NCBI RefSeq assembly: GCF_026210795.1
Contig: NC_089430.1
Coordinates: 186,001 to 250,000 of the forward strand
Length of the DNA: 64,000 nucleotides
Direction: 5' to 3'
From: Rhizophagus irregularis
Taxonomy: Eukaryota
In this document: in pieces, positions 14,274 through 58,458 of the stretch
Layout: each line of letters begins with the position of its first letter
How positions within the stretch are numbered: position 1 is the stretch's first letter
The notes under the pieces: model-generated
Seen by the model: the letters and a program-made list of their open reading frames with translations, nothing else
The model's database searches: none
What the model was told of the DNA's origin: nothing
Translations under genes and position numbers: made by a program

Positions 14274-14389
14274 TTTTAAAGTAAATTGAAAATTGAAATG
14301 TGTGTAAACCAAAAAATTGGGATAAAAACAATAAGGGGAATCAAACATTATGTCCGATTTCTTTATGATTATAAAGAATAAATCACAAT

Positions 14390-16508
14390 TTAAACCTGAG
14401 GTTTATTACCGCAATTGAATGGGTTAAGTATGAAGCTTGATTGTCCTGAGGTATCTTGTTCAGACGCTTCATATGTGTTTTCAATGATGCCTGTATCGGA
14501 GACCTCCCCAGATTCAGTATAATATTCGTCTGAGAGTGGGAGTGCATTACTGTCTTCCATGGCCGGTTCGGCAGATGGTTGGATGAACCATTTTTTCACC
14601 TCTTTTAGAGGAGTTTTTTTGTATGGGATACTAGTACGCTTGGCTTTTCTGACTGGTTGTAGTCGAAGGGGTGAGGTTTGTGATACTTGTAAGGTGTCAA
14701 TGAGTGTTTGCATTTGTGTCATCAAGCTTTTGTGTTGATTTTCTAGACTACCTTGTCTCTGTGTGAGCAAGGCTATGTTAGTGTCAATCGTGGTCAATTG
14801 TTGATGATGTGATGAGTATTAATCCGTGAACGTTTGGTGGGAACCTTGTAGTACGTTAACATGATTTGTTAAAGTAGTAATTTGTTGTTCCATATGTGCG
14901 ATTTTGTTTAGGATTTCTTAAGGAATTTGTTGTTGAGTCCAGGATGAAGTAGACTTTTGATGTGTCCCGTCCAGGTTTTTCTTAATGTTATTATAGGATT
15001 GTTTTTGTTTTCCTTGTGTATCAGGTTGAGGGCGAGATTGTATGTTTGATTTACCAGAATTATTATTGGCTGGAGAGTCTTATGACGTGGTTATAATTTT
15101 GTCTAGTTGTTTCATTGATCATTATGCATTCCTTGTTACGCATGATGAAACGTTTTTTGAAAATTTTTCGTTCATTTTTGTCTAAGGTGAAATCTGTACT
15201 AGTACAGTTTTTATATTCGTGTATGTGACTACCATATACATTACATGTTTTTTTGGTATTTGTGTAAGGAAAAATAAAGATTGTATATTCTCCAAATTTT
15301 GTACCCGTGATTGTAGTGTAATCTTTTTTAATATCATCAGAGTGAACGTATATAAATGCGTTCTTGAAGAATGATGAGCGTGAGGTTTGAGTAAATGTAC
15401 ACGTTCGTCCCTTTAGATGTGTAACTAAAGGGCTTAAATCTTTTGCGTTCGTGTTTAAAGGTAAACCAGTGATTTTATAGAAAGCAGAGGTTTGTTGTGT
15501 GTATATTGGATGTTTCGGATTGCCTGGTAGGATTCTGGCTACTGAGTCCTTAATAACTAAGCACCAGTCTTGTTCTAATAGGTAATCTGCCGCTGCTTTG
15601 TCTTCAAAGCTAATTATTAGTTATTTATAGCTCAGCTTGATAAAAATTGGTTTGTCATTTTTGTTCCGGTTTTGGATTTTTTGAGGTAGTTTTCTAATTT
15701 CTTTGTAAGTTGCGATTCTTTTTCCCGTTACGTTAGTTATTTGTTTTATTAATAATGTGACATCGTAATTGATAGGGATATCTAATATTTTGATGATCGT
15801 GTTATCTTGTAATTGGAGTTTACGTTCAATTAAGGTATCTATATTTTGTTGTGTATATTCATAAATTTTAACATTTTGAAGTTCTGGAGGTGATGTTTTG
15901 ATAAGGTATGACAATTTGTCTTTAGTCGACACAGATATCATATAAAATTTGAATGTCATTTTTTTGAGGGATCTAACTTTAATAAAGTCTTTGTCTCCGA
16001 CAAAGATGTTGTTGAGTTTTTGTAAAATTTCTTTGTCTGTAAGTTTTGGCGGAAAACTATCTCGTGGGATAAACCCTTCAAAAGAAGTTTGTGCTTGTAT
16101 ATTTGAGGCTGAGAATATGTTGTCGATCATGGGGATTTCCTCGATTGGTGGTGGATTACCGTTAATGGATGTAGATCCTTCTAAAGGTTGTTGTGTATCA
16201 TTAATCGTTTCAATGATTGGTGCAGTTGGTAAATGGGCGTTGAAGTCACGTGTTTCTGAGGAATTTTTCCCAGAGACTTGCTCCACGGAGGAGGAAGTTC
16301 GAGAAGGTAAAGTCAAAGCAGGCTCGGCTGTCTTCTGACTATTTTCGTTGTTTGTTGTAGATATGTTCGACATTTTTCTATTTCTATTATTATTAACGTT
16401 AGGAGCGAAAGTTCTATATATATCTTCTTTGTCGGTAGAAAAATGATATGTTTTTTCGATATTTTTTAGAATTTTTTGAGAAAACTTGGAACGAGTGTTT
16501 TTACTCAT
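14390..16508 (-). pseudogene. LINE ORF1 (gag-like nucleic-acid binding protein), disrupted
   Basis: Upstream of ORF2 on the same strand; degenerate zinc knuckle CNVYGSHIHEYKNC near 15205-15245; coiled-coil C-terminal fragment 14390-14797. Confidence 0.75.
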
Positions 16509-18531
16509 GTAAATAATGTAAACAAGAGTGTAGAGTCCAAAAAATCACAAATTAGATCAGGTTTGTATGTAGAAAAAATAGTTTATATAGTATATTTCTT
16601 TAGCTAAAAAAATGGTCAGAGTGATCATTCTCCAGAGTTTCCCGAAGTTTCCGAAATTGATTCTGTTTGTGATTATTTCGATTACGTCCTTCCTTTTTTG
16701 TACATCACATGATTATAAATTGTCCAATAATCTTTAAATATTTTAATGACAAATGATCAAATAACAAAGGACGCAAATGACAGCCCAATCATTTGGAATT
16801 TGTCATTTCACGAATAATTCAAATGCCAAATGCCAAATGAAGGGGTGTCATTTGACCAAATGACTCCTAATCCGAAAAATGGTCAAATGACCAGGTCATT
16901 TCTGAATACTGTGTTAAACAGAAAATCCTATTCGTCTGGCTTAATGCACCATTTTAATCACCCTTATTAACTTTCTATTATATAATTTTTTATTTCCTAG
17001 ATTATAGTTGCCCATTTTGACGATGCCAAGTGGCACTTAGTATATTTCAAACTTATGTGGACGAAAATGTAAGTTGTTTAAATCGAATTTACATATGTGT
17101 ATCTTTTTTATGGTTTTAATATATTAATATTAGTTGGTTTATTTATATCGTAGGAAGAAGAAAATTATTATTGCTGCGCTTGGTCTATTGATCTGAATGG
17201 CACATTTGTCATTACTACGCACCTCCTCATGCTTGTTCTCCCAGCAAGTGCTACCATTATAATATGCTATTGGAAGGCTATAGGGAGACGATTTGTACAC
17301 CTGTCAGGTCAGATTTTTTATGCCCAGAGGTGGGAGCGCCATTACTTGCTGTTACTGAAGCTACAGGAATTATTATAATTCTAAACACTAAGTGTAGGAT
17401 CGGCTATAAAAGTATAATAACAAAATTATATTACAAATTGATTTAAATGGAATTTGAACATCATGATATTTGGTTTCTTTGCTTTGGAATTTCATATGAC
17501 TATCAAATGCTTGCAACGGGAATCAAGCAAGGCAAATTTATATATGGGATTTTCAGGATATTATTCCACATTATATTGATTACTATATCGAAAAGAAAAA
17601 AGCAGAGTATTCGGGAACGAAAAAGGAAAAAGCTGTAAAAAGAAAGGCAGTACTTCCATTGTTAATAAAAAGATTAGTGACAATACTGATGCATTAGTAA
17701 GTGGAAGTTCTTATGTAAGTGAAAGAGCATATATTAAGAAACCTATTATCCTTGAATCATTTTCATGCGAGAGCATAATTCGACAAGTTGATTTTTCAAA
17801 AGATAGACAATGCTTTGATTTGGTGTTAGAAAGATGTTGGAAATAAAGCGATTGGAAATGATGCGATTAATGGCAATAGCATAAATCATCAATAAGACAT
17901 TTAATTGAAATTATTAACCAAGCGCGAAGTAAAGCTTGATCTCATAAATCAGCTTGTATAGTATATTTTGTATTACGCAAAGCTACTACCACAAATTATA
18001 TCTCATCAGTACTTACGTGAGAATTTGGCATAGAATTTAATTAATTTAGAAATTTTATTATCAATAATGGACAAAAAACATACGTACAAAAAAAAAATCA
18101 AAGATAGTAAATGTTCAATTCCCGCAAACAATGGTGGTTGTATAACTGATAATTTTTTATTTAATAATTTAAATACATAAGTAGTAATTATAATGATTTT
18201 ATTTAATAATTTAATAAATAAATTAATAATAAAATACGATGATATATATAAAAGGCTCAATGACATTTATCAATTTATCATGACTGCAACTACAAATTGT
18301 AATTGTTTCTAGTGATATAAAGATTCATTTCGATGATACAAGAAGAACATTCTTATTAAAATAAATTCACAAATAGAGTTATAGGATCACCGCCCAACCT
18401 TCTTTTTATATATTTAACTGAACTGACAAAATGACGAAAATTTGTTATTGAGTCGTTTATTTATATTTATCTGGTCACGGACTTGCTAATCTAAAATGGT
18501 GTGTCCAATTTTATAAAATCTTTTAAATAAC

Positions 18532-35938: not shown

Positions 35939-36980
35939 TTACTCAAAAGACTCTATCAACTTATTTATAGGATTCTCATCTGAAGCATCAAGTTCTTCTA
36001 TATACTGATGACCTAATTCTAAGAGATAAGGAACACTTTTGTAATCATCCAAACTTATTTTTTCTTCAAACCAAACCTGCCATCGTTGATAATGATTTCC
36101 CAATAAACTATACATTGAACGATCAGTATTGCCTTTCTGTTGTGGTAGCACTACTTTGTGAAGATTTTGTGCCCAAAAAAGATTACCACGATATAGATCA
36201 GGATTTAAAGGGTTAGGCATATAGCCCCCTGTACCTAAAGAAAGCACGGAAATCTTTTCTTTTGCTACATTATACTGAATAGCTTTTTCATATGCCGCCA
36301 TTGCTGGATTATTAAGATGTAAGGCTCCGTCTATGAAAAAGCCCCTGCCCTTTATCTCATAAGGCGGAAAAAAAGTGGGCGCAGCCGTTGTTGCCATTAA
36401 AGTATCAAAAAAAGTGTCATTTGAGTAACCAGGACGATCATCCATAACGTGTAAATAAATGTGTACGTGTTAAATTATTTTCATCTACTGCAGGAATAAC
36501 TAGTTCTGTAAGTGCTTTATTTAAACGCACATTTCCGAAATGATTAAAAAACAATGAATTGCGATCTTTGTCTGTATATCTTGGCTTGAACAATTTCCAT
36601 GAATCATTTTTGGTAAACAAGTCTTTTACTTGGTTCTGGTAAAGATTTAATATATCTGAAGCTGAAAACTTTGGTCTTGAATTTGAACATTTATAATATG
36701 GCACGTTATTTTCATCATACATTATTTCCCAGGATGGTACCGATAGCCCAGCAGCAATAATCCCTCCTGTTGATGTTCCAGCTATCATATTAAATAAGCA
36801 AGAAATGGGTCTATGTGTGCGATATTCTATCTCACTAAGCCATAAGGCAGGTAATATTCCACAAACACCCCCTCCATCAATTGAAAGAATATTATAAGTG
36901 GGACTCTCTTTACCATAAGAACTCTTTAAGTAATCCATTTCATATTTAATAGTCTTTTTTCCTTTTTCGTAACAATCCAT
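35939..36980 (-). pseudogene. Patatin-like phospholipase, frameshifted and 5'-truncated by a transposon
   Basis: LSIDGGGVCG, AGTSTGG, AAPTFF, FIDGA, LSLGTG; frame break near 36440; coding-like sequence stops at the CCCTATG terminus at 36981. Confidence 0.88.
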
Positions 36981-38809
36981 CCCTATGAAAAAAGCCTGTG
37001 TGATTTTTGTTGAAAAAACATCCAATTAAATTCACTATGATTTCTGTATATTTGACCATACAATAATTGTGCTAAAAATTGCAATAAATCACACAATAGT
37101 TGTATGGCAATCATACAATAATTATCCAATTTATGACCTGATTTTATACAATTATTGTCTAATTTTTGAGCCAAATTTCGGGCCGAATTTTAGGAATTAT
37201 TCTGGGCCGAATTTAGAAATTATTGTGAGCCGAATTTTAGGAATTATTAGGAATTATTATGGCCGAATTTAGGAATTATTGTGCCGAATTTAAAAATTAT
37301 TGTGGGCTTTTTGGGCTGAATTTTAGGAATTATTCTGGGCCGAATTTAGAAATTATTGTAATTATTGTGAACCGAATTTTAGGAATTATTAGGAATTATT
37401 ATGGCCGAATTTAGGAATTATTGTGGGCCGAATTTAAAAATTATTGTGGGCCGAATTTTAGGAATTATGATTACAGTAAGTCAAAATTTGGTCAGTAACG
37501 ATTAACGACAAGCAAATTTATAAAGTGAAATTATGGATTTTTATTAATTTAAATATAAAATATACAAAATAAAACACTATATTTGATATGAATTATAAAT
37601 GTAGAAAACTATAAAAAAATATAAAAATATATATATAATAATTAATAAATAATATACTATCGCTGTATTAGATATAAACTATAAATTAAAACTATAAATG
37701 TATAAAGAAAATAAAATCAAATATCAAATAAATGTTAATAGCATGATTAGCGAATTAATAATATTAAAGAAAGTAAAGTAAATTATTGGTATAAGTAAAT
37801 TATTAATATTAAAAATAAAAAAGTATGAAGTTAGTAAAGAAAGCAAAATTAGAATTAGTAAGTAGTATGGAAAGTAAATTGTTAGCATTTGTTAGCGTTA
37901 GTAATAATAAAAAAAAAGAAAGTAAAATAAATTATTGTAAGTAAATTATTAATATTAAAAATAAAAAAGTATGAAGTTAATAAAGAAAGCAAATTAGTAA
38001 GTAGTATGGAAAGTAATTGTTAGCGTTTGTTAGCGTTAGTGATAATAAAAAAAAGTATAAAGTTAGTGAAAAAAGTAAGTTAGTAATTGAAATGTAAAAA
38101 AGTTAGAAAATAAATAAAAGGATAAAAAAAAATAAATTTTCTTACCGAAAAGAAAGTTTGAAGAAAAGAAAGTTTGAAGAAAAAAAGTTTGAAGGAAAAA
38201 AAGGTTAAAAAAAATAAACAAATATTTTCTGCGTAGTGAAAAAAGCAAGTTAGTAATATTCAAATGTAAAAAAGTTAAAAAATAAATAAACGAAAAGAAA
38301 AGTTTGAAGAAAAAAAGTTAAAAAAAAATAAACAAATATTTTCTGCGTTATATTTATTTTGATGATCAGATCACGTGTATAATATAATTTAATTTTAATT
38401 GGACGATCAGATCACGTGTATAATATACATAATTTTAATTGGACAATTTCCTTTATTTTCCAAACTAACCGGATAAGTAGTGACACAAAATTTTAACTAA
38501 CGAAAAATGAACTTTTAAACTTTAATTTTGCATTATCGTTACATTGTTACAAAATTTCATTACAAAAGCAATACGACACAAAAATTTACTTTATTTAAAA
38601 TATGCATATTATGTGCTATTCAAGGATTATAGATTCACAAAAGTACCCGAAATGATAAATTTGTCAAAATGTGATTCGTCTAGAATATATCTTTTATATT
38701 CAGGGGTTGCAAAATTTTGGTTTCTTTTTCTTTTTTACATATTGTTATCTCTAATTTATGAAATAAAATAAAATATTAGTATTTGTAACTAATTAATTTC
38801 AAATTAAAT

Positions 38810-41009: not shown

Positions 41010-42619
41010 ATGTAATACTTATTTAAAATAATAGTTATTTAATTTGATGATTTTTTTTGAAGACAAAAAAATAGTGATAGTATTACTGTAGATTAAGTGT
41101 TAGATCCTCGAACGAGGATAATTTTTTTTAAGATGATTAATTTATCGTTAATCGCAACGAAATAAATAGGTGTGTAAACACTAGTGTAAAGATGTATGTA
41201 AAGAGGTATGTATAATGCTTTTTTTTAAAAAAAAAATAGGCAGAAACATTATCAATTGTTCTTAAAAAAAAAAATAATCTTTTTTTTTAATACAATATTC
41301 GAAGTACAAAAAAGGAATACAAAAGTCTATTTTTAAATTACACAGCCATCTTAAAACGACAATATTTAACAGGAATATTTGTGTACAAATTATTCCGAAT
41401 AAAGATAAATCAAAATTTTTTAGCTTATAAAATCTGAAACATAAATTTTATGCAGTGTGAAAAAAAAAAGTATTTTAGTTTTTAATTTTTATAAATCTTG
41501 TATAGTGTAAAAAAAAAGTGTTTATTTTTTATAAATTGTGAAAAAAAAGTATTGGAAAAAAAATGTCGAATAATAAAGTATTATGTATATGTTCCAAATG
41601 TAAAAAAAAAGGATCAGATAATATTGGTAAATATGTGCATCCTACTACCAAATGGAGACATATTAAAAATGCAAAAAAGAATTATAATTTTAGCGACAAC
41701 GATGATGATAGCGACGATCACAGGTCGAACAGATGTCATTGTCGCAAAATTTGCCTGGAATTTTTCTGGCAAATTGAGAATTATCCCGGTAAATTGAGGT
41801 AAATTGTGTTACAATTTTGGGATAATGGAGGTCTTACAATTTGGCAAATTTTGTCAAAATGGCGACAATCCTACACAATTCCTAATTCAAATGTTGAGAA
41901 ATTTTTCAGAAATTTTAGTCAAATTTTTAGTAATTTTATGCAAACGTAATGAAAATTGTGGTGAATTTAGTCAAAATTTTTAGTAATGTTATGTAAACGT
42001 AATGAAAATTGTGGTGAATTTAGTCAAATTTTTAGTAATTTTATGCAAACGTAATGAAAATTGTGGTGAATTTAGTTAAATTTTTAGTAATTTTATGCAA
42101 ACGTAATGCAAATTGTGGTGAATTTAGTCAAATTTTTAGTAATGTTATGTAAACGAAGTGCAAATTGTGGTGAATTTTTAGCAATATTAGGCCAATGTTA
42201 TGTAAATTGTGATGAATTTTTTGTAATGATACGTAAATTGCAAATTTGAAATAAAAACTTTCCATTGTTGCACAATTTACCGGAAAAATTCTGGTAAATT
42301 GTGCATTTTTTTGTCAAATTTTGGAAAAATGGACCATTTTACCAAAATTTAACTTTCAAATGCTAGAAAATTTTTAGCAATTTTAGACAATTGAGTGACA
42401 ATTGTTTGACAATTTTTGGACAATTGAGTGTAAATGTAATATTTTTAAGACAATTTCTGACAATTGAGTAATAATTAAGCAACAATTTTGAGTAATTTTA
42501 TACAAATTTTATAACAATTTATTGATTCTAATTTTATTAACAATTTATCTAATTATTCAATTATAACGTGTAATTAAGTACAATAATGTTAAAAAAAACA
42601 AACATCAAAAAAAAACAAA

Positions 42620-44310
42620 AAGTTTCGAAGGTTAATCTTCGAAACTCACCAAGCAAGGAGCCAAAGAACTATTATCTTGTTACAATAACCTACAAAAAAA
42701 GAAAACCATTCAGTTAGAATGTTTCTTAAAGATAAAACAGAAGTTTCGTAACGAAACGTACGAAACTTACCATTTCAGAAGCCATATCCAATACCTGAAC
42801 GTAAAGTAATGGCTTCTATTCAACAATGGTTTTACGAGATTCATGTTACCTAAGTTAGCTTCCCAGATATCCCGAACCTACAAAAAAGAAAAGGAACGTT
42901 AGTAAACGGTTCCTAATAAAAAAAAATTAAGTTTCATGATATTTGTCATGAAACTCACCATTTAAACTGAAGTTTCGAAGTTATACTTCGAAACCTACAC
43001 GTTATCCAAACCCAAGTTCGAATCTGGAGGGGAGGGACCTACAAAAGAGAATAAAGAAATGTTAATAAAACATTTCTTTAAAAAACAAACTGAAGTTTCG
43101 CAACGTTTTTTTTGTTGCGAAACTTACCAAAGTCAAGTATCCCGCTCGAACCTACAAAAAAAAAATAGAAAAGAAACGTTAAAAAACGTTTCTAATAATA
43201 AAAAAAAAACACGGTAAGTTTCGTTGCGAAACTTACCATTTTCACTTTCCAATGATACCCGAATTGGAGACCTACAAGAAATGAAAAAGTAAAAGAAACG
43301 TTAGAACGTTTCTTAATTAAAAAAAACAAAAAAGATAAGTTTCGTTGATGAAACGAAACTTACATTTTTCCGTTTCGGAATCCTAGAGCACCGGAACCTA
43401 CAAAAAAAGTAGAAGAAACGTTAGAGAACGTTTCTTAATTAAAAAGAAAATAAAATATTTTAAGTTTCGTTAAAACGAAACTTACATGTTAACGTTTCGG
43501 AATCTTGGAGTACCAGAACCTACAAAAAAAGTAAAAGAAACGTTAGAACGTTTCTTAATTAAAAAAAATATAATATAATAAGTTTCGTTAAGTTTCGTTA
43601 AAACGAAACTTACATTTTCCGTTTCGGGAATCCTGGAGCACCGGAACCACCGAACCTACAAAAAAAGTAAAAGAAACGTTATAGAACGTTTCTTAATTAA
43701 AAAAATATAATATAAGTTTCGTTAAAACGAAACTTACATTTCCGTTTCGGCCATTAATGAATATTCATGCTGAAACTTGGCGTTCTCCTGAACCTACAAA
43801 AAAAAGTAAAAGAAACGTTAGAACGTTTCTTAATTAAAATAAAAATATAAATATAATTAAGTTTCGTTAAACTTACATTTCCGTTTCGGAATCGAGGAGG
43901 GCCATTAATGAATATTCATGTGAAACTTGGCGTTCTCCTGGACCTACAAAAAAAAAGTAAAAGAAACGTTAGAACGTTTCTTAATTAAAATAAAAATATA
44001 AATATAAGTTTCGTTAAACGAAACTTACATTTTGCCGTTTCGGAAACCTGGAGTACCGGAACCTACAAAAATAAAGTAAAAGAAACGTTAAAACGTTTCT
44101 TAATAAAGAAAAAAATAAAAAAAAAATAGTTTCGTAAGATAACAAACTTTACCCGACTTCTCCAAATGTAACGATAATTGCCATACCAACGGGAAATGGG
44201 AAAGGTGAGGGGAAGGACGAGAGAGAGGGAAGTGGGGAGAGAGAGGGAAGGAGAAACGAGAGGGAGGGTGACGGGAAAATGGTGAGAAGAAGGGAAGAGC
44301 GAAATAAACT
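42620..44310 (-). ncRNA. Putative spliced non-coding transcript with 11 repeated structured introns and short exons
   Basis: Introns at 44152-44063, 44028-43944, 43876-43794, 43737-43656, 43613-43520, 43485-43398, 43363-43272, 43236-43152, 43127-43039, 42958-42878, 42770-42690; typically GT(A/G)AGTTTC...(C/T/A)TAAC...pyrimidine tract-TGTAG. Transcription is inferred. Confidence 0.7.
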
Positions 44311-44339
44311 AAATTAGTTTTTTTTTTAAACTCTAAAAA

Positions 44340-44476
44340 AAAACTGCGGCTGCGGCTGCGGCTGCAATAGTTTATTTTTAGTATTTTTAGGTTAGTTAAA
44401 AAATGAACTGCGGCTGCGGCTGCAGTTTAACCAAGTTCATGTCACGTGATACACGTGACATGTATTTTATATAAAT
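44340..44476. promoter_or_regulatory. Putative (possibly bidirectional) promoter
   Basis: Two (CTGCGG)n tracts, perfect dyad CATGTCACGTG-ATA-CACGTGACATG (44438-44462) with two CACGTG boxes, and TATA-like TTTTATATAAATA. Confidence 0.5.
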
Positions 44477-47400
44477 AGGGGGCTTTTCCCCGAAACTTTT
44501 TTTTTTCTTTTTTTTATAATTTTTTTAATTTAATGATAGATGTATATATATACTTATATATATACATATATATATATCTATCTAATAAACTTTACGAAAA
44601 GCCCCTCCTCTGTAAACAGGTAGAGGCCATAAAGTACCTATAGGGGGAGAGCCATTGCTGCTCCCTCCGCCTGTTTATAGTGACAAAAAGAGGGAGTCTT
44701 CAGTAGTAAGGTTTAGTATTAAATTAAACAACATATCACAACACATCGTGTTGTTACATTGTTAATATTAACAATGTGTTTAATGTTAAATAATGCGTTT
44801 AGAATATAAATATTATAAATTTAATAATGTCCGTAATTTACAAATAAATAAAAATTATCATCAATTTTAATGTAATTAAGTGTAATTCTACGTTATCCAA
44901 TGTAATTGTAATATTTTTTTGTGTTTTTTAGTGCAATTCCGCGTTTTTTAGTGCAATTCCGCATTTTCTAGCATAATGTTACATTTTCCAGCATAAATAA
45001 AAATTATCCTAATAATTTTAATGTAATTAAGTGTAATGCTACGTTATTCAGTGTAATTGTAGTATTTTTTTGTGTTTTTTAGTGCAATTCTGCATTTTTT
45101 AGTGCAATTCCACATTTTCTAGCATAATGTTACATTTTCCAGTATAACGCGAAATTTTCTAAAAAATATGATAATTGTGGTACTTTTTAGTGTAATGCTA
45201 CATTGTCTAGTGTAATTGTGGTATTTTTTAGTTCAATTCCACATAATCTAGTATAGTGCTACATTTTTCAGTATAATTTAATGTAATGTAGAATTTTCCA
45301 AAAAATGTGATAATTGTGATACTTTTTAGTGTAATTTGGTGAAATGCTACATTTTCCAGTGTAATGCTATATTATTGAGCATTTTCCAAAAAAAAATTGT
45401 AACATTTTAACATTCTGACGAAAATGAAACATTTGACCAAAAAAACATAAAATTTGCTGAAAATATGCAACATTTGACAAAAAATATAGAATTTTCATAA
45501 AAAATGCACCATTTGCTAGAAAATTGGAATATTTGACAAAATTTGATTTTAATTGACAATGTTACAACAATTTTATGAAATGTTGTTACAATGATATCAC
45601 ATTGGAGATAAAATGTGGCATTTTCATAAAAATGCACCATTTGCAAGAAAATTGGAACATTTGACAAAAAAAAAGCAAAATTTGATTTTAATGACAATGT
45701 TATAACAATGTCACAAAATGTTACGAAATGTTACATTTGAGATATAATGTAGCATTTTCCCAAAATTTCATAAAATTTGCTAAATCGGACAATGTTGTAA
45801 CAATGCTATTCCAAAAAATTGCTCAGCGTAATGCAGCATTTTCCACAATTTCCCACCATTTTCCAGAAAAATGTGGAATTTGCATTTTTTGAATTTTGGA
45901 CAATGGTGCCCCTTCGACCTGTGGATGACGATAGCGATAATGATGATAATAATAATAATAATAACGATCATGATGACGATAATAATGATAACGATAATGA
46001 TGATAATAATAACGACCACGACAAAGACCACGATGACGATAATGATCACGATGACGACCACGATAATGATGGCGATAATGATGATAATAATAACGACTAC
46101 GACGATAATAATCATGATGATAATGATGTAGAATATAAACAGTAAGTATTAAAAAGAATATTTCTGTTATTCGTTAACTAATAATGATTATTAAATGTTT
46201 TATATTATATTTTAATTGTAATGATGATAGGAGGAATGAACTTGATAATAGATCTTCAAGATCTCCTACTCCCGTTTTCATAGTAATTGATGATGATTGC
46301 TATGATGACAATCAAGAACACCATGACAATCGTGACAATTCTGATGAAAAAACAGAATCATCAACTGCAACTGAATCTGAATCTTATGAAAGTTTATATG
46401 ATTCTTTTGATGATAATAATACGTTTGAAGTATTACAAAAAGGACTATATAGTAGCGATAATGAATCATCTGATGACGGTATTAATTTAACAGAAGATAA
46501 TATACGCAATATTTATTTATTTATTTAAATTATTTATTATTAATGCAAATACATATTATTTGTAGGGTCTAATATTGTAGGGTCTAATATTAATAGTATT
46601 AATGATGAAGTTGCTAGAGGTTTACGTCTTCTTGAAGTAAAAACTCGACAAAATATTACTGATGCAGCCTTTAAAGAAATTGTTACTGCAGCTAGTGGTA
46701 ATTTTACAAGTCAATATACACTAATAAAAACACTTAAAAATATAGTTCCTATTAAACCAATTTGGGTTGATATGTGCATAAATTCATGCTGCGCTTTTAC
46801 TGGTAATTTGAAAACATTAAATAAATGTACTTATTGTAAAGCTGAACGTTATCAAGAAGGAGGACGACCAAGAGCACAAGTAGCATATTTTTCAATTCAG
46901 AATCGATTTAAAATTCAATATCAAGATCCAACACGCGCAAAACAATTACGTTATCATTCTGAATATATTACCAGAGAAGATGATGGTGCTATTGGCAATG
47001 TATTTGATGGCTCACAATATAAATATCTATCCCAAGAGGGATATTTTCAAGATGATCGTGATATTGTACTTTTAGGTTCTGTTGACGGTTATCAACTATT
47101 CAAACAAAAATGTAATGATTGTTGGATAGTTTTATTTATTAATGCTAATTTGCCACCCCATCAATGTGTAAAAAAAGAAAATTTACTTATTACTTCAATC
47201 ATCCCGGGTCCTAAAGCTCCAAAAAATTTTAATTCTTTTATGAAACCAATAGTTGAAGAATTATGCTTATTAAATGGTAATTTTAATTACATACATTATG
47301 ATAAAACTTAATGATAAAAAAAAATATATTAAAAATAATTGTAAATTTGTAAATTTGTAGATGGTGTTGAATGCTATGATGGTGCTACGAATGAGAATTT

Positions 47401-49869
47401 CCTCCTAAAAGTTACGGTACTTTCCTGGTCTGGAGATACTCCTGGATTGTCAAAACTTGCTTGCTTAACTGGACATAATTCATACATGGCATGTCGTTAC
47501 TGTGATCTTCGAGGGATATATAATAATCATGTATATTATCCTACAACACCACCATCAATTGAAACATATAAAACTTATAATCCATCAGATTTACCAAAAA
47601 GAACTCATAGAGATTATAAGATAAGAATTGAACAAATAACGACAATACCGCCATCAAGAACACACGATACATTAATTTCTGATTTAGGTAAATAATAAAT
47701 CTATTGCAACATAATTTTTTTTACTATAAAATTAATAATTATTATTTTGAAATAGGTGTTACAGGACGTAGTGTTTTATTAGAAATAGAAACAACTCGAT
47801 TTCCTACATGTTTTCTAATAGATATTATGCATTTGTTTTATGAAAACATCGCATTATATATGTTAAAACATTGGATGGGTTGTTTTTTTAAAGATTCTAT
47901 TCTTAATGATCAGCTATATGTAATTAACAACAAACAATGGACTGAGATTGGGATTGAAATGGAAACTATAAGAAAATCCATTCCAACTGATTTTGGTCGA
48001 TCACCACGAAATATCTTACATCACCATAATGGTTACAAAGCAGAGGAGTGGGCTTCATGGATAACCTTATATTCTTTACCTTTATTAAAAGATCGTTCGC
48101 CAGAAAAATATCTTAAAGGTTGGTCCTTTTTTGTTAAAGCTGTTCAGCTTTGTCATGATCAAGAAGAAATAAGGAAATTATTATTGCTATTTTATCAACA
48201 TTATAAACGGTATATATATTACAACATTTATTTATTTATTTGAATCTTTATTGTTTTTTTATTAAAATAATATTATTTTTAGTTATTATTATCAGTTTTT
48301 GGCTGCCCGACTAAGTGTAATGAAAGTATGCTTTCATTATATTTTACATGTTGCTGATAGCATTCAGGATACTGGACCATGTTGGTCAACATGGCAGTTT
48401 CCTATGGAACGTACTTGTGGAATGTTACAACCGCTAGCAAAATCACGTCTCCATCCATATAAAAATCTAACAAACAATGTATATTTGTTAGAATTATTTA
48501 ATAATTTGTGTTATTTTAGAAAATTTTATGATCAGATTTTTCCTTCTATACCTTGTAAAGAGTATAAAGAGCACCTGGTTTATACAAATGAGAATTATGA
48601 AGAAGAATTTCAATCCCTATAAAAAATATATATACAGTTAGTATACTGTATTTTCGTATTTTGCGAACAGTATATTTATAGTATTATTACCGTATAATTA
48701 CAGTATTTTCACATACTGTATATATTCGGTATTCTGCACACCGTATCATATATACGGTTTGCATACAGTATATTTTTCCAGTTTCACCCGTATGTTTTAT
48801 ACTTGTAAACAGTAGAAAAACCGTATGTTTTATACCAATAAACAGTATATTGTTTTATATTTTATATTGCGAACAGTATACTTTTCCAGGATAAACCGTA
48901 TATTTTATACTGATAAACAGTACTTTTTTCCAGTTTAAACTGCATATTTTGTACTGATAAATAGTATATATTATTCAATTAAATCGTATATTTTATATTT
49001 GCAAACAGAATTTAAAATGCATTTATAATCAATAAAATTTTTATTAAATAATATTAAATATACAAATATTTTTTTATAAATAATATAAATAAAAAACTAG
49101 TATAAAATAATATACTATTTGTAAAAAAAATAATATTAGCAAAATATAAACAAAAAAAAAAGAAATTTAATTAGTAATATTATCATTATTTTAAATATAA
49201 AAAAGGAATAATAAAAGGTTAGTAAAAAAAAAGAAATTTAATTAGTAATATTATCATTATGTTAGTAATATTATTAATATATTAGTTAGATATAAAAAAG
49301 TAATAAAACGATAGTAGTAATATTAGTAATATATTAAAAAAATTAAATAAAATACATAAAAGTAAAAAAAAATATAATTAATATATGTTAACATATAATA
49401 TTAATATAAAAATAAAAACATAAAACGGTGTACATATAGTTGTTTAATTAATATTGTTAAAATTCACCATTACAATTCCAGAGAGATATTAGTGAAAGTA
49501 ATTGTTAATTGATATACGAGCATATCACTTTTTGTATAATTAGTAGTTTGGTACAAATATATATATTATATATTATCAAAATAAGTTTTTTATTTAATTT
49601 TTATTATTATATGTTAAAATAATTTTGGTATTCATTTTTATTGTCTTTTTTTTCTAAAAAAAAAGAAGAGAAAAGAATATTTTTGAAAAAATAAACAAAA
49701 AATAAACAATAACGTGTTATTAATGCATGTGATCGGCGATCAGCTGAATTTTAATTGGTTAAATATAGAAATGCGAAAATTAAAAAGCAGAAGTATTTTT
49801 TTTAAAATTTAAATCATACAGATTGTTTTTAAAGTTTAATTAGTAATTTAAAAGTTCTTTTTTTTTAAT

Positions 49870-51765
49870 AAGAAAATTTGTAAAAATTTTTCTTAATACT
49901 GCTTAATTTTTAAATTAAAGCCTTAATACTAAATTAGCTAAATTAGAATTAAGAAAAATTTGTGAGAATTTTCTTTGATACTGCTTAATTTTTAAATTAA
50001 AGCTTTAATATTAAATTAGTTAAATTAGAATTAAGCAGTATTAAGAAAAATTCGCAAGAATTTTCCTTGATACTGCTTAATTTTTAAATTAAAGCCTTAA
50101 TACTACTAAATTAGTTAAATTAGAATTAACATATGGACTGATTTATGGAATTAAGTTTTTATATTCAAAAAACTAACTTTATTAAGAAAATGCTAATACA
50201 ATTTACATGAAAATGATAGATTCACACCGCTGATATAAATAAAATTGATTTGATTATATTATTTTTTGATTTTTTTAATAATATCATTAAAATTAAAAAA
50301 TTTAAATATAATTGTCATGACAAAATATTGAATAACTTAACGTGTATGTGTGCTAGACGAATGAATTTATATTCATTAGAAAGAGGTAATCAAGAGCTAT
50401 CCATAAACCAAATATCACATGAATTGGATCACAAGTTGCTGAATAATTACGTTCAATATATTTATTTTTAACCTTTGACTTTGATCGTTAATATCTTCAC
50501 ATCTAGTAATTCGATTTGAATAATCTTTTTTCGTTCAGGTAGAGTAGATTCTGGGCTTTCATATGAATATAAATATATGTGTTTAGCATACATGTACGCC
50601 GAGATATTAACGATTTTGTTAATTGAATAAAACTCTGACACAAAAATTTTTAAAATTATAATTCTTACCAAAAGATGATCTTTACAGGTATTATTGGGCT
50701 CTTTTTACTTTACTTAACAAGTTTTTATTTGCCATTTCTGTTTTAAATTGAATAAATTAATAAAATCAATTTTAAAAAGTAATTAACAAGTAGAATAAAA
50801 TTAGTATAGTAAAAAACAAAAAAAAACATCTCAAAAACTCTAAATCATAACTCACATTTTTATTTTGTATATATTTTTACTAAAAAAAAGAAGGGAATAA
50901 GGTTAAAAATAAATGAAAAAAGATTTTTCTAATTAATAAAAATTATTAATATTTGTTTTCTTACTTACTGATTAAAAAAAACCTGCTATATATGCCTATA
51001 AACTTTTCTAAGTCACCTAACAAAAATCTGATTGAAAAGTGATTGAAAAGTGATTGAAAAAGAAAGTAGTTGCCATTGTTATTTTTGAATAAACGTTAAA
51101 AAATTTTTTTTTTATTTTTTGATAGATTTAGATCATCTGATTATGTAACACATACAATTTAAGCTTGTGAAACATAATTCTTGTTAAAATGTGCAAATCT
51201 TTATGTTTGGCTAATTTCACGAATTGGCAGATATAAGCAGTATTAAGAAAAATTCGCAAGAATTTTCCTTGATACTGCTTAATTTTTAAATTAAAGCCTT
51301 TATACTAAATTAGTTAAATTAGAATTAAGCACAATAAGCAGTATTAAGAAAAATTCGCAAGAATTTTCCTTGATACTGCTTAATTTTTAAATTAAAGCCT
51401 TAATACTAAATTAGTTAAATTAGAATTAAGCAGTATTAAGAAAAATTCGCAAGAATTTTCCTTGATACTGCTTAATTTTTAAATTAAAGCCTTAATACTA
51501 AATTAGTCAAATTAGAATTAAGCAGTATTAAGAAAAATTCATGAGAATTTTCCTTGATACTGCTTAATTTTTAAATTAAAACCTTAATACTAAATTAGTT
51601 AAATTAGAATTAAGCAGTATTAAGAAAAATTCGCAAGAATTTTCCTTGATACTGATTAATTTTTAAATTAAAACCTTAATACTAAATTAGTTAAATTAGA
51701 ATTAAGTAGTATTAAGAAAAATTCATGAGAATTTTCCTTAATACTGCTTAATTTTTAAATTATAA
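49870..51765. repeat. 92-bp palindromic tandem repeats in two blocks (49870-50130, 51235-51765)
   Basis: Unit contains AAGCAGTATTAAGAAAAATT-cgcaag-AATTTTCCTTGATACTGCTT; spacing 51428 to 51520 is 92. Confidence 0.9.
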
Positions 51766-51964
51766 TTTATAAAAATGATTTATAATTAAGTTTTGAATTT
51801 AGTATTATCAATCGGACTTTGAACTTAAAAATTAAACAGTATTAACAAAAATTCTTGTGAATTTTTTAATAATTGTGATTTTACATCAGTGAGTTTTAGG
51901 GTAGTACATATTAGCAGATACTAGTATTGTTTGATGCTTTAAAGTGTAGAAAAACTTACTCTAT

Positions 51965-53907
51965 CACACGTCAAATAAATAAAAATTGGCTGATTTTTAG
52001 CTATATTTGTCCGATTTGTGACTTTTTACAGCCGTATTACCAATTCTTAACCACATTTTTCAGTTTTTTCACTATACAAAAAAATTGTATATACATTATG
52101 AAATATATATTTTTATAAAAAATTATATTGTAATATTGAATTAAAATTTAAAAAATATTTTATTAAGCAATATTAAATAAAAAACTAATCTTAAATAATT
52201 AAATTTTAAACAAAATACATTAAGAATATAAATTTACTTGTAATTTAATGTAATACGCACAATTATAAAAAATTAATAACTCCACAAATATTAACTGTGC
52301 CTTCATTAAAATAAATATTCAAGTAGATTCTAAGCTGCTGAACAATTTTTAATTAATAAAAGAAGTCGATTTACTTTGGCTAAAGTGCTTAAAATACGCT
52401 CTGAAGTAACAAAATGGAAAAAATAAAATTCGTAAATGAGTACCGTTGTGAAAATCGTGAATAACTCCACAAATATTAACTGTACCTTCGTAAAAATTAA
52501 TATCCAAGTAGATTTTGACCTGCTGAACAACTTTCAATTAATAAAAGAAGTCGATTTACTTTGACTAAAGTGCTCAAAATACGCTCTGAAGTGACAAAAC
52601 GGAAAAAAATAAAATTCGTAAATGAGTACTGTTGTGAAAATCGTGAATAACTCATCAAGTATTAACTGTACCTTCGTAAAAATTAATATCCAAGTAGATT
52701 TTGACATGCTAAACAACTTTCAATTAATAAAAGAAGTCGATTTACTTTGACTAAAGTGCTCAAAATACGCTCTGAAGTGACAAAACGGAAAAAAATAAAA
52801 TTCGTAAATGAGTACTGTTGTGAAAATCGTGAATAACTCATCAAGTATTAACTGTACCTTCGTGAAAATTAATATTCAAGTAGATTTTGACATGCTAAAC
52901 AACTTTCAATTAATATAAGAAGTTGGTTTACTTTGGATAAAGTGCTCAAAATACGCTCTGAAGTGACAAAATGAAAAAAATAAAAGTCGGGAATGAGTAC
53001 TGTTGTGAAAATTGTAAATAACTCATCAAGTATTAACTGTACCTTCGTGAAAATTAATATCCAAGTAGATTTTAACCTGCCGAACAACTTACAATTAATA
53101 TAAGAAGTTGATTTACTTTGGCTAAAGATCTCAAAATACGCTCTGAAGTGACAAAATGAAAAAAATAAAAGTCGTGAATGAGTACTGTTGTGAAAATTGT
53201 AAATAACTCATCAAGTATTAACTGTACCTTCGTGAAAATTAATATCCAAGTAGATTTTAACCTGCCGAACAACTTACAATTAATATAAGAAGTTGATTTA
53301 CTTTGGCTAAAGATCTCAAAATAAGCTCTGAAGGTAAAAAAATTTGTAACTTAATACTACTGTATAATATAAAAAATGTAAATAATTCCAAAAATATTAA
53401 CTGTACTTTTATGATCTTAACAGTTTTAAACTTACTAAACTACTTTTAATTAAAAGAATAAGATTTACTTCAGCCAAAATGCTCAAACCATACTTTGAAA
53501 TATATGTAAAAAAAATATAATATTTGTTTATATTTTAAATTATGAGTTATTTAATTTAAATGTATTTATATTTAAGAAAAAAAATATTTTAATTCTATTT
53601 TATAAAGTATTTAAAAAGTATTTTAGTAAAGTTTTTAAGGCAAAAAAATAATTATAACTGAAATAAAAAAAAAATCTAAGTTAATAAATAAATATTAAAC
53701 CGTAATACATAATCACATGTTATATATTAAAATCGAAAAATCCTATTACAAATAACCAAAATCGGCAATTTCATGTTAAAAATCAGAAATATTATATTAA
53801 AATCAGAAATATTTATTAAAATCGGAAATATTATATTAAAATTGCCAAAAAATCAGACAGCCATATTAAAAAGGGCAAAAATCTGATTTTTATTTATTTG
53901 ACCTGTG
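51965..53907. mobile_element. Nested CACA(C/G)GTC-terminated non-autonomous element
   Basis: 22-bp TIR CACA(C/G)GTCAAATAAATAAAAAT; TAT on both flanks. Confidence 0.8.
52270..53480. repeat. About 186-bp tandem repeat, about 6 copies
   Basis: TAT(C/T)CAAGTAGATTTT at 52501, 52687, 52873, 53058 and further copies. Confidence 0.92.
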
Positions 53908-54516: not shown

Positions 54517-57500
54517 TTTATATATATATAATATGCATATGCATATGCATATTCGCAATTTCAATAATAATACATTATTTAATGCTAATATTTCAAAAAA
54601 TATTGCTATATGCAAATATTGCTTCTTTTGACATTATTAGAATAAAATCATAAATTGGACACTTCTGTAATACTCTTATTGCTTGTTAAGTTTAATTATC
54701 AAATAATAAACTTTTGTAAAAAAAAAATTTTGTTGATCATCTTTTTTCTTTGATCATCGTCAAAGAGATAAATAAAAAAAAATTAAAAAAAAATTAAAAA
54801 ATGAAAAAACAATTAAATTTAGAGTAAATTTATTCATCGCACGTGCGATGCATCGCCACTTTCCTTTTTTGTAAATTATTTATGTTGATCAACCTGCTTA
54901 TACATCGCCACCCCCCTTAAAATGGCAATGATAAACATAAAAATTTGCATCGCACGTGCGATAAATAAATTATTTCTTAAATTTAATTAACATTTAATTA
55001 AATAATGAAGTTTTTACTAAAATTTATTAAATAAAAATAATATATTGTTTAATTATTTTATCCATTACAATATAATTTTTATATTAAAAAATTAAACCAA
55101 TAATACTAGTGCGTTGATCATTTCAATGATCAAAACATTGAATAATAAAAAAGCTCTGAACAGTTCCAATTTTCAATTCTTTTTTAATTGGTCAGAATCA
55201 TTTTCACGTAATAACTCACCATCCAGTGATCGTAGAAAGACGATTAAGAGCTCATTAGAATCCTCTTATTGAGAGCTTTCAAATGATGCCAAAATCATCA
55301 TTTTAGCATCGATAGATGGCGAGTTATTTTGACACATTATCAAAAAAAATAAAAATTAGAACCATTTGGCCAGGAGCTTTAAACAATACGCAAAATAATA
55401 TTATGTACTGATTATTGACATTTACTGAACATTATTCACTCAAGAATTGCTCATTGTATTGTTCAATGCTATATTATTTTTTGTAGAATTATTTTACTTT
55501 TTATTCAATACTTATCAATTTTTAAACTTTACAAAAAATTTAATACATATTTAATCAAAGGTCATCTAATTTAACTTCAAGAAACTTTCAGTTAGTAAAG
55601 TTAACCCAAAATTAAATTTTTCATAAAATTTTATCCATTTAACTTTTATAAACCTAAATTAAATATGTGTTATATGTTCAGATAATCCAAATTTATCAGA
55701 AAATAAAAAAATTTTTTTTATTATATTCAAAAACAAAGATAATAACCAATTCTTTTTTTCAATCACTTTTCAATCACTTTATTGTTAAAAAAAATTAATA
55801 AATATATAAAGTGGTTATTTTAAACAGTAAGTAAAAAAAAATTATTATTCATAAGTAAAAATTATTTTTTATTTGTTTTAACTTCAGTTCCCTACTTTTT
55901 TTTATATAAAATATTAAAAATATAAGCTATAATATAAGATTTTTTATTTTTTTTAAGTTAATAAGATTCTAAAATTTTTTTTTGATAAGAAATGATAACT
56001 TTATGTCAGTTTATGCAATTAACAAGTTCATTAATATCTTGGCATTCACATATGCTAATCAAATAATTTTAAACTCATTTGAAAGGTAAGAATGTACTTT
56101 ATTTTAGCATTACTAGGCATGGTGATATCAACAATCAAAGATAAAAATTAAAAAAAAAATATATTGAATGAATTTGCTCAGCAACCAGTGAATCAATTCA
56201 TTTGTTTTTGGATTCATTAGATAGGTCTTAATTTTCTCTTTTGGATGAATATAAATTCATCCATTTATCTTACATAGACATCAAGTTATTTGCAATTTTG
56301 TTCCAAGAATTTTATAATGATTATTTAAATTTTAATAATGGTGTATTAAAAAAAATATGATTAACAATTTTATTCATAAATTATTATTTTGTGCAACTGG
56401 TAATTTGGTAAAGTTTGTTTTTTAGAGTCAAAAAGTGCTAATTCCAAAAATTGGCATATATGAACAAATGATATGCTTGGGGACGAAGTCCCTCTTATTT
56501 AAGAAATAAATAAAGTTAAAAAAATTAAAAACGTATAGATGATCATGCAGATCTTGTGATAATCAATTAAAAAAGTGTTAGACGAAATTTTTTTTCAAAA
56601 ATTTAAAATTTTTTCTTTTTTTATAAAAACATCATAAAATTTTTTTTACATTTTTTTCTATTTGTAAGATTAAATATTTGGATATTACATAATTACAAAT
56701 TAAAATTATAAGTGTATTTCTTTTAAAAAATACTGTGATATTTCATAAAAAATATTTTTTTTTACTATTTTTATTTTTAAACTACTTGAATTTATAATTA
56801 ATGAAAGAATTAATTTAAAATTCATGTTATTTCAAATTTTTGTCAACTCAGTTCTTAATTTTTATATTACATTTTTTTTTATATAAAATTTTTTTAAATT
56901 AAACTTATTTTTCCAAACACACTATAATCTCCACTTTGGACAAATGAAATCAACTTTATTTATTAATTGAAAGTTGTCCAGGCGGGTTAAAAGCACTTGA
57001 ATATTAATTTTCATGAATGTAGATGTAGTGCATAGAGAAGATTGCATTTTTCTTGATGATATTAACTCTCTTTTCTGTTTTTTTTTAATTTAGAGCGTAA
57101 TATCTCCACTTTAGACAAATGAAATCAACTTCATTTATTAATTGAAAGTTGTTCAGGCGGGTTGATTCTACTTGAATATTAATTTTCACGAACATAGGTG
57201 TAGTGCATAGAGAAGATTGCATTTTTCTTGATGATATTAACTCTCTTTTCTGTTTTTTTTTTAATTTAGAGCGTAATATCTCCACTTTGGACAAATAAAA
57301 TCAACTTCATTTATTAATTGAAAGTTGTTCGGGTGGGTTGATTCTACTTGAATATTAATTTTCATGAATATAAGTGTAGTGCGTAGAGAAGATTGCATTT
57401 TTCTTGATGATATTAACTCTCTATCTTTTCTGTTTTTTTAATTTAGAGCGTAATATATCCACTTTGGACAAATGAAATCAACTTTATTTATTAATTGAAT

Positions 57501-58458
57501 GTTGTTCAGGTGGGTTGATTCTACTTGAATATTAATTTTCATGAATGTAGGTGTAGTGCATAGAGAAGATTGCATTTTTCTTGATGATATTAACTCTCTT
57601 TTCTGTTTTTTTTTTAATTTAGAGTGTAATATCTCCACTTTGGACAAATAAAATCAACTTCATTTATTAATTGAAAGTTGTTCGGGTGGGTTGAAACCAC
57701 TTGAATATTAATTTTCATGAATGTAGGTGTAGTGCTTAAAGAAAATTGCATTTTTCTTAATGATATTCTGTTTTTTTAATTTAGAGCATAATATATCTAC
57801 TTTGGACAAATGAAATCAACTTCATTTATTAATTGAATGTTGTTCAGGCGGGTTGATTCTACTTGAATATTAATTTTTATAAGATTTCGTTTTTTTGTAG
57901 CTGTATTAACTTTAAAACACTTATTACAACTTACATCATTATTTTAAATCATAGGAATTAATTTATATTATTGGCTAATTATAATCACATTGATACTAAG
58001 GATTTTTTTTTATTTTTATATTTGATTTAATAATTTAATAAAATATTATTAAAATCAAATTCATATAAATGCAACTAATATTAATAATTGTAATTTAAGT
58101 AGTAAATTCATTAACCAAATCATGTAAATTCTATGCTTAAAGTATGTAATTTCTGTGATCAAATCAATATAAATTCAGCATAAATTATGGTTAAATCATG
58201 CAAATGATGCATTTTGTAATATGGAATTGTGCATTTTCTGTATTCCTATATAGATTAGAAATATTATTTTTAAGAAAAAATTGTATAAAACCTTATTAAA
58301 AACATGATTTTTTATAGGATCTAATTATAATAAATTTTATTATTCAGTAATATTTTAGTGATTTTACATACAATTCAATTTATTTATATCAAAGAATTTT
58401 TTTAATTATAAATGTTATATTTGGGGGACGAAGTCCCCCGGCAAATCGCATATTCTAG
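54517..58458 (+). mobile_element. Non-autonomous Helitron-like element in a transposase intron
   Basis: 3' hairpin GGGGGAC-GAA-GTCCCCC (58423-58439) then CTAG and a flanking T; candidate 5' end A|TTTATATATATATAATATGC (TC decayed to TT, inferred); internal hairpin copy near 56480. Confidence 0.7.
56925..57880. repeat. About 176-bp tandem repeat, about 5.5 copies
   Basis: CCACTTTGGACAAAT-like motif at 56931, 57106, 57282, 57459, 57635, 57797. Confidence 0.92.

What the first reader, a model, noticed from the sequence alone, without database searches (positions are those of the whole stretch)
42620..44152. CRISPR-like array in which the repeats are spliceosomal introns and the spacers are micro-exons
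Seen: on the minus strand, 11 complete 81-94 nt units plus a 12th donor at 42649. Each starts GT(A/G)AGTTTC (first unit GTAAAG), has a branch-point-like (C/T/A)TAAC and ends in a pyrimidine tract-TGTAG followed by GT. Spacers are 34, 67, 56, 42, 34, 34, 35, 24, 80, 107 and 40 nt. Splicing from the upstream ATG at 44184 gives a stop after about 34 codons, and most exons are not multiples of 3. Known: introner elements generate similar introns but are dispersed across coding genes, and snoRNA host genes are non-coding with functional introns. Inference: a non-coding host transcript whose products may be the excised structured introns, or a splicing-dependent locus; I know of no described system with this layout.
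Basis: partly seen in the sequence, partly recalled or inferred. Interest (0 to 1): 0.92.

Follow-up and report, generated by a model that had tools for sequence, protein, structure and literature searches.

The report
Fungal tandem chain of hairpin introns
In a mycorrhizal fungus, eleven look-alike introns, each predicted to fold into two hairpins, alternate with tiny exons in a multi-copy and likely non-coding repeat whose copies databases file as unknown proteins; it is not CRISPR-like, but it would be an undescribed kind of repeat worth testing for a role in RNA silencing.

Summary
In detail: 11 GT-AG units (81-94 nt) and all 11 spacer lengths are as stated. Each unit is predicted to fold two hairpins, one over the 5' splice site and one around the branch point (median z -5.0; 14 control introns -0.07). 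The sequence matches Rhizophagus irregularis gene models. The CRISPR analogy fails: five spacers resemble exon 1 or each other at 60-88%, so exon and intron were duplicated together. The unit is a family: all 44 soil-metagenome loci scanned hold two or more units, none a single one. Anchored on the hairpin alone, 85 of 90 units have an acceptor, and the branch motif is strand-specific (60 vs 1). Protein coding is unlikely: exon lengths ignore frame, 8 of 10 indels shift frame, 2 of 15 variants are synonymous, and public models read the same exons in different frames. Splicing evidence is thin: two junctions (4 and 3 reads) from related copies in one run, none for this copy; poly(A) reads often keep intron sequence. 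Best reading: a likely non-coding, inefficiently spliced repeat transcript. Not found in 10 literature searches.

The parts
44153..44330 (-). pyrimidine-rich first exon (5' end not mapped; 44330 is my working limit); ATG at 44184
   Evidence: public models begin here in more than one frame
44063..44152 (-). intron 1 (90 nt, GTAAAG donor)
43944..44028 (-). intron 2 (85 nt)
43794..43876 (-). intron 3 (83 nt)
43656..43737 (-). intron 4 (82 nt)
43520..43613 (-). intron 5 (94 nt)
43398..43485 (-). intron 6 (88 nt)
43272..43363 (-). intron 7 (92 nt); its acceptor position is joined to an exon-5-like sequence in 4 reads of run X22 from a related copy
43152..43236 (-). intron 8 (85 nt); the following 24-nt exon is present or absent in paired public models
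43039..43127 (-). intron 9 (89 nt)
42969..42998 (-). orphan donor-like hairpin inside exon 9 (likely relic of a truncated unit)
   Evidence: sequence
42878..42958 (-). intron 10 (81 nt); absent in 3 reads of run X22 from a related copy
42690..42770 (-). intron 11 (81 nt)
42620..42649 (-). 12th donor with hairpin and no acceptor; likely relic in the terminal exon
   Evidence: similar ends in L010 and L020
42650..44062 (-). exons 1-11 between the introns (34, 67, 56, 42, 34, 34, 35, 24, 80, 107, 40 nt; 35-55% GC against 18-30% in introns)
46544..48622 (+). context only: CACTA-type transposase pieces (Transposase_21), divergent from the array
   Evidence: E 1.7e-14 for 46544-47311

Best explanation
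The array is a chain of eleven similar GT-AG introns and short exons, likely built by tandem duplication of one exon-plus-intron module and likely transcribed as a non-coding RNA that the major spliceosome would splice slowly, because one predicted hairpin hides each 5' splice site and another brackets each branch point. Shown: the anatomy, the relatedness of the exons, the occurrence in arrays in all 44 loci scanned, the strand-specific splice signals and the lack of a kept reading frame. Partly shown: splicing (two junctions, related copies, one run) and intron-containing poly(A) reads. Inferred: growth by unequal crossover or slippage; spread of whole arrays in transposon-rich DNA; selection on the intron's architecture rather than on the exons. 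Most likely role (inferred, about 1 in 3 within this reading): a cis-acting one, in which retained introns with a stalled spliceosome route the transcript to RNA silencing or decay, as the retained intron of the fission-yeast dg ncRNA does.
For: Exons are related, 60-88% for exons 1/4/5/6/7, and introns 69-93%. 273 model hits in 44 loci, at least 2 in each (counted from the table). Of 90 distinct self-complementary cores anchored without any splice signal, 85 have a YAG 8-28 nt downstream (shuffled mean 22, max 35), 67 have a GTRAG upstream (shuffled 9.5), and CTAAC lies on the T-rich strand in 60 against 1. Folding z median is -5.0 (11 units) against -0.07 (14 inferred control introns); donor +3..+8 pairing is 0.73-1.0. 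Across 85 units 92.5% of cells pair, with 31 two-sided changes against 11.8 shuffled. Non-coding: exon lengths mod 3 are 25/25/19 of 69; 8 of 10 length differences are not 3n and synonymous excess is P=0.10; 2 of 15 variants are synonymous; exons 7 and 8 are read in two frames across 32 public models (19 vs 7, 17 vs 7); 6 of 7 chains of 7 or more introns have stops in all frames. Splicing: loose ends in X22 at 43271 (4 reads) and 42957 (3 reads) match exon 5 (24 of 30 letters) and exon 10, compared by eye.
Against: No joint at any of the 11 introns in the rows shown for three raw-read runs (191, 259 and 77 reads; 24-30% of each run read; 4 joints and 85 loose ends not shown). X22 is only guessed to be RNA, and a DNA copy lacking the intron was not excluded. 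The reads give no strand. RNAalifold found no consensus structure on the gappy alignment. G-U against A-C cells are 27:11 in hairpin 1 but 18:24 in hairpin 2, so RNA-level selection on the stems is not established. Stem conservation is partly built in by my parser. Some relatives carry long runs of units lacking a donor (L010, L011, L040). Some alleles carry an open frame of 127-219 aa, and exons have fewer stops than shuffles (18-26 in most frames, 13 in one, vs 44). There is no direct evidence for a silencing role.
Confidence: 0.5

Rival explanations
1. A neutral or selfish DNA repeat. An ordinary exon-intron piece was amplified in tandem, palindromes were perfected at DNA level (template switching, recalled mechanism), signals are re-seeded by duplication, and splicing is incidental.
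For: No G-U over A-C excess in hairpin 2. Stem extensions differ freely between copies. Substitutions are mostly transitions (49 of 66). Donor-less runs exist. Palindromes also occur outside the array (24 vs about 11 in shuffles). The surroundings are transposon-rich.
Against: 85 of 90 acceptors are kept, and branch motifs are strand-specific, while arrays are only about 63-72% alike over long matches and loops and linkers vary. L008 keeps 15 spaced introns of which only 1 has the 5' hairpin.
Confidence: 0.25
2. A young Rhizophagus orphan protein gene made of micro-exons; the window's allele is a pseudogene (two stops and a one-base difference against other alleles).
For: Public models join these exons: 9 of 11 consecutive junctions were found among 43 models. 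Several alleles have an open frame through exons 3-11 (P0014, 127 aa; P0007, 219 aa). Paired models differ by the in-frame 24-nt exon. At least four tags of one annotation (OCT59_) hit.
Against: The 34-nt repeat exons shift frame one after another, and models use different frames. 13 of 15 variants change the residue and 8 of 10 indels shift frame. No Pfam family in 4 models. All 25 homologues are R. irregularis models.
Confidence: 0.1
3. A host transcript whose products are the excised structured introns (agotron-, mirtron- or snoRNA-host-like).
For: Intron length 81-94 nt and stable folds fit the agotron size class (PMC4869172, abstract and section 9). The intron, not the exon, is the conserved part.
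Against: No C box in 11, a D box in 1, no 3' ACA in 11. No Rfam hit at gathering score. Stems are about 7-14 bp and the ends do not pair as one long mirtron hairpin. Introns are GC-poor (18-30%), whereas agotrons are GC-rich.
Confidence: 0.1
4. Introner or introner-like elements that inserted repeatedly into one gene.
For: Many similar, structured introns with canonical signals (PMC3609843).
Against: 0 of 44 loci hold a single unit. Flanking exons are co-duplicated. No terminal inverted repeats and no evident target-site duplication beyond the splice-site letters. Length is like that of ordinary introns here (67-158 nt controls).
Confidence: 0.03

Closest known systems
Same-gene intron duplications (SGD) by segmental exon+intron duplication in fungi (PMC3609843)
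   Same: Near-identical introns in one gene with flanking exon sequence co-duplicated.
   Different: The paper reports at most 16 SGD members per species, with folding energy like ordinary introns. Here there are 11 in one locus and up to about 30 model hits on one contig, strongly structured, multi-copy, likely non-coding.
Introners and introner-like elements (PMC3609843, PMC11282704)
   Same: High-copy, sequence-similar spliceosomal introns with stable predicted structure.
   Different: These occur only in tandem arrays in my sample, with no TIR or TSD, not in unrelated coding genes, and are not longer than ordinary introns.
Schistosoma micro-exon genes (MEGs; bioRxiv 10.1101/2023.06.21.545858)
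   Same: 10-20 very short exons in a row; exon skipping in annotated isoforms.
   Different: MEG exons are mostly multiples of 3, introns are 0.1-5 kb, and products are secreted proteins. Here exons ignore frame, introns are about 85 nt and similar, and coding is unlikely.
Fission-yeast centromeric dg/dh ncRNAs with retained introns (PMC5322907)
   Same: Repeat-derived non-coding RNA with an inefficiently spliced intron; a possible working model.
   Different: One intron rather than a chain of duplicated hairpin introns; the silencing role is shown there and untested here.
Agotrons (PMC4869172) and snoRNA host genes (recalled)
   Same: Short structured introns of 80-100 nt; intron more conserved than exon.
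   Different: No Argonaute data, GC-poor, no snoRNA boxes.

Membership tests
CRISPR array | unique, unrelated spacers | tested here: not met
   exons 1/4/5/6/7 are 60-88% alike, exons 2/3 81%
CRISPR array | short (about 25-50 nt, recalled) near-identical repeats | tested here: not met
   81-94 nt units at 69-93% identity
U2 spliceosomal intron | GT donor, branch motif, pyrimidine tract and YAG in order on one strand | tested here: met
U2 spliceosomal intron | excised in transcripts | tested here: inconclusive
   two junctions from related copies in one run (4 and 3 reads); none for this copy
Introner / ILE | many similar copies with stable structure | tested here: met
Introner / ILE | dispersed singly in unrelated genes | tested here: not met
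   0 of 44 loci with a single unit; a sample from one exact-pattern scan, not a genome
Introner / ILE | TIRs and TSDs (most, not all, families) | tested here: not met
   ends of 11 introns inspected
Same-gene segmental intron duplication | flanking exons duplicated with the intron | tested here: met
Same-gene segmental intron duplication | folding energy like ordinary introns | tested here: not met
   z -5.0 vs -0.07
Micro-exon genes (MEG) | exons mostly multiples of 3 | tested here: not met
   2 of 11 in the window; 25 of 69 in the family
Micro-exon genes (MEG) | secreted protein with signal peptide | not tested
   no signal-peptide predictor was run; coding itself is doubtful
snoRNA host gene | C/D or H/ACA boxes in introns | tested here: not met
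Agotron / mirtron | excised intron bound to Argonaute or cut by Dicer | not testable with these tools
   no small-RNA or Ago-IP data available
dg-type silencing ncRNA | retained intron needed for siRNA and heterochromatin | not testable with these tools
   only intron-containing reads of unknown strand

The most novel reading that the evidence does not exclude
Arbuscular mycorrhizal fungi carry a family of dedicated non-coding 'intron chains'. The exons are mere spacers and the selected unit is a two-hairpin intron that holds the spliceosome back, so that the transcript becomes a platform for small-RNA production or heterochromatin in transposon-rich regions, or releases stable intron RNAs.
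Probability: 0.2. Interest if true: 0.85.

Novelty: new variant of a known kind. Interest (0 to 1): 0.55.

Why it matters
R. irregularis is the model mycorrhizal symbiont, and two-thirds of its repeats are unclassified (PMC11075540). This family is currently annotated as dozens of 'hypothetical proteins', so it may inflate counts of orphan genes. It gives a natural series of structured introns for testing how hairpins over the 5' splice site and around the branch point affect splicing, and how repeated introns arise without introner transposition. If slow splicing feeds RNA silencing, it would link splicing to repeat control in a fungus with a large repeat load.

Tried and rejected
No whole genome is held, so copy number per genome is not known. 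No RNA holder listed. Viral contigs gave 0 matches for the unit pattern and for a spacer stretch. The genome-contig search gave no answer. Rfam gave 12 weak hits, none near gathering score. RNAalifold gave no structure. My first pair count had helix 2 out of register (58% paired) and was redone. ESM Atlas gave no usable hit, which is no evidence. Three look-ups of earlier findings gave nothing. A fixed transposon carrier was considered: flanks differ (TET/JBP, kinase, unnamed ORFs), so it is not supported. A shared promoter motif was found in only 3 of 45 loci, two of them the same contig. P0004 and P0005 were dropped as chance hits. Rows dropped: L034 or L035 (one contig); L019 (probably chimeric); 20 of 102 distinct introns lacking a GTRAGY donor or over 105 nt before alignment A1; only 15 exon variants of the 40 rows shown were classified (48 rows hidden). 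Control introns were inferred from ORF breaks and some may be wrong. No structure prediction or complex job was run.

Full report
Observation. The minus strand between 44152 and 42690 holds 11 units of 81-94 nt that start GT and end TGTAG, followed by GT, with spacers of 34, 67, 56, 42, 34, 34, 35, 24, 80, 107 and 40 nt and a 12th donor at 42649. The donor motif occurs 10 times in the window, all in the array, against 0.16 expected. Splicing all units from the ATG at 44184 gives 34 codons and a stop, and no frame of the spliced product stays open. A covariance model built from 85 units finds the 11 units and the 12th in the window, and otherwise only weak hits.

Anatomy. Each unit is predicted to fold a 5' hairpin that pairs donor positions +3 to +8 (probability 0.73-1.0) and a second hairpin whose loop ends in the branch motif. 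Among 78 family units with a branch motif the commonest context is TACTAAC, mostly 23-28 nt from the acceptor. Folding z has median -5.0 for the 11 units and -0.07 for 14 control introns inferred from ORF breaks in the window. On 85 aligned units the two helices are 92.5% paired, with 31 two-sided changes against 11.8 in shuffles. That count is inflated by relatedness and by my parser, and RNAalifold found no consensus on the same alignment. G-U against A-C cells are 27:11 in hairpin 1 (P=0.014, with 5 from the A/G choice at donor +3) and 18:24 in hairpin 2, so it is open whether the stems are selected as RNA or made at DNA level.

Not CRISPR-like. Exons 1, 4, 5, 6 and 7 are 60-88% alike and exons 2 and 3 are 81% alike; introns are 69-93% alike. 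The repeated unit is exon plus intron.

A family. One exact-pattern scan of metagenome contigs gave 45 loci, many redundant. In 44 of them (one duplicate left out) the model finds 273 units, at least two in every locus. Long matches to the window's array are about 63-72% identical; that these contigs are other Glomeromycotina is an inference. Anchoring only on the self-complementary core, 85 of 90 distinct cores have a YAG 8-28 nt downstream (shuffled mean 22), 67 have a GTRAG upstream (9.5), and CTAAC lies on the T-rich strand in 60 against 1. Common descent contributes to these counts. Some arrays begin with runs of donor-less units. L008 keeps 15 introns of which 1 has the 5' hairpin. In run X5, 186 contigs lie on the stretch, several with other spacers between units.

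Organism and annotation. The 35-aa translation of exon 10 is 100% identical to an NCBI Rhizophagus irregularis model. All 25 homologues of model P0002 are R. irregularis hypothetical proteins, among them four OCT59_ and several RIR_jg tags. Among 43 models, 9 of 11 consecutive junctions are found (similar exons make some calls ambiguous). These are predictions; I could not see their read support. PMC10234402 describes RNA-guided annotation (passages), but the tag OCT59 is not in its text and its supplement could not be read; it may bear on the splicing and small-RNA questions.

Coding test. Exon lengths mod 3 are 25/25/19 among 69 distinct exons. Of 24 nearest-neighbour exon pairs 14 are equal in length, 8 differ by non-3n and 2 by 3n; best-frame synonymous changes are 25 against 21.5 simulated (P=0.10); 2 of 15 read or contig variants are synonymous in the models' frame. 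The same exons are read in different frames by different models. Six of 7 chains with 7 or more introns have stops in all frames. Four models have no Pfam family. Against this, some alleles carry 127-219 aa open frames, and exons are poorer in stops than shuffles in every frame.

Expression. In three raw-read runs 191, 259 and 77 reads were laid; 171, 228 and 76 fit only in part, so most come from related copies. No listed joint skips a predicted intron (4 joints and 85 loose ends were not shown). In run X22, 4 reads join an exon-5-like sequence (24 of 30 letters) to the first base of exon 7, and 3 reads run from exon 9 into an exon-10-like sequence; I compared these by eye. X22 is only guessed to be RNA, and intronless DNA copies were not excluded. 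The two poly(A) runs hold reads with intron sequence; first mates fall on both strands, so direction is unknown.

Context. A CACTA-type transposase lies 2.4 kb upstream on the other strand. A short look-alike of its presumed start lies on the far side near 41740, with weak inverted matches between the flanks. Plavaka (CACTA) elements are reported as prevalent in this species (PMC11075540, passages). Relatives' flanks differ, so no fixed carrier is shown.

Mechanism. Most likely (0.5): a module of exon plus intron was duplicated in tandem, whole arrays were copied around transposon-rich DNA, and the non-coding transcript is spliced slowly because the hairpins compete with spliceosome binding, giving retention and skipping. 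A cis role in silencing or decay is my preferred purpose, by analogy to the dg ncRNA (PMC5322907, abstract) and to stalled-spliceosome siRNA synthesis in Cryptococcus (recalled); it is untested. Rivals: neutral repeat 0.25, orphan protein gene 0.1, host of intron RNAs 0.1, introner 0.03.

Known kinds. It meets the definition of same-gene segmental intron duplication but not its small scale or lack of structure (PMC3609843, first third of the text and passages). It fails introner membership (PMC11282704, passages), MEG membership (bioRxiv 2023.06.21.545858, passages) and snoRNA-host tests. Agotron status is untestable here (PMC4869172, abstract and section 9). Ten searches (listings only, plus passages of PMC12155092) found no description of these arrays; the library lacks most subscription papers.

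Verdict. Real, multi-copy and apparently undescribed; a new variant of duplicated structured introns, likely non-coding. Interest 0.55, held down by thin splicing evidence and no functional data.

Noticed in passing
window 43754-43787: This 34-nt part of exon 3 is matched by 41-64 reads per run in all three raw-read runs, with the same unlike flanks on both sides: a separate, more highly expressed locus shares this segment. No match in viral contigs or the 45 loci.
   Followed up: partly
L010:1-560, L011 (5' half of the array), L040:700-1660: Long runs of about 50-nt repeats made of a T tract, GTAG and an exon-like piece with no upstream donor hairpin; the GTAGGT at each joint could serve as both acceptor and donor.
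   Followed up: no
L034:711-2189 (-): TET/JBP oxygenase ORF (PF12851, E 1.7e-09) about 1 kb downstream of two tandem arrays, each followed by a similar perfect hairpin.
   Followed up: partly
window 41690-41800 (-) and 45850-45960 (+): Two similar presumed CACTA gene starts point away from each other with the array between them.
   Followed up: partly
window 8899-16544 (-): Decayed LINE-type retroelement with reverse transcriptase and RNase H pieces.
   Followed up: no
window 35939-37025 (-): Patatin-like phospholipase split over two frames.
   Followed up: no
window 44349-44426: Long GCAGCC-rich inverted repeat just upstream of the first exon (alignment).
   Followed up: partly
L019:691-1098: Array contig joined to GC-rich bacterial-looking ABC transporter sequence; probably a chimeric assembly.
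   Followed up: partly
window 49869-53333 and 56927-57877: Tandem repeats of 92, 185 and 176 nt; the 92-nt type also flanks arrays in L009 and L027.
   Followed up: no
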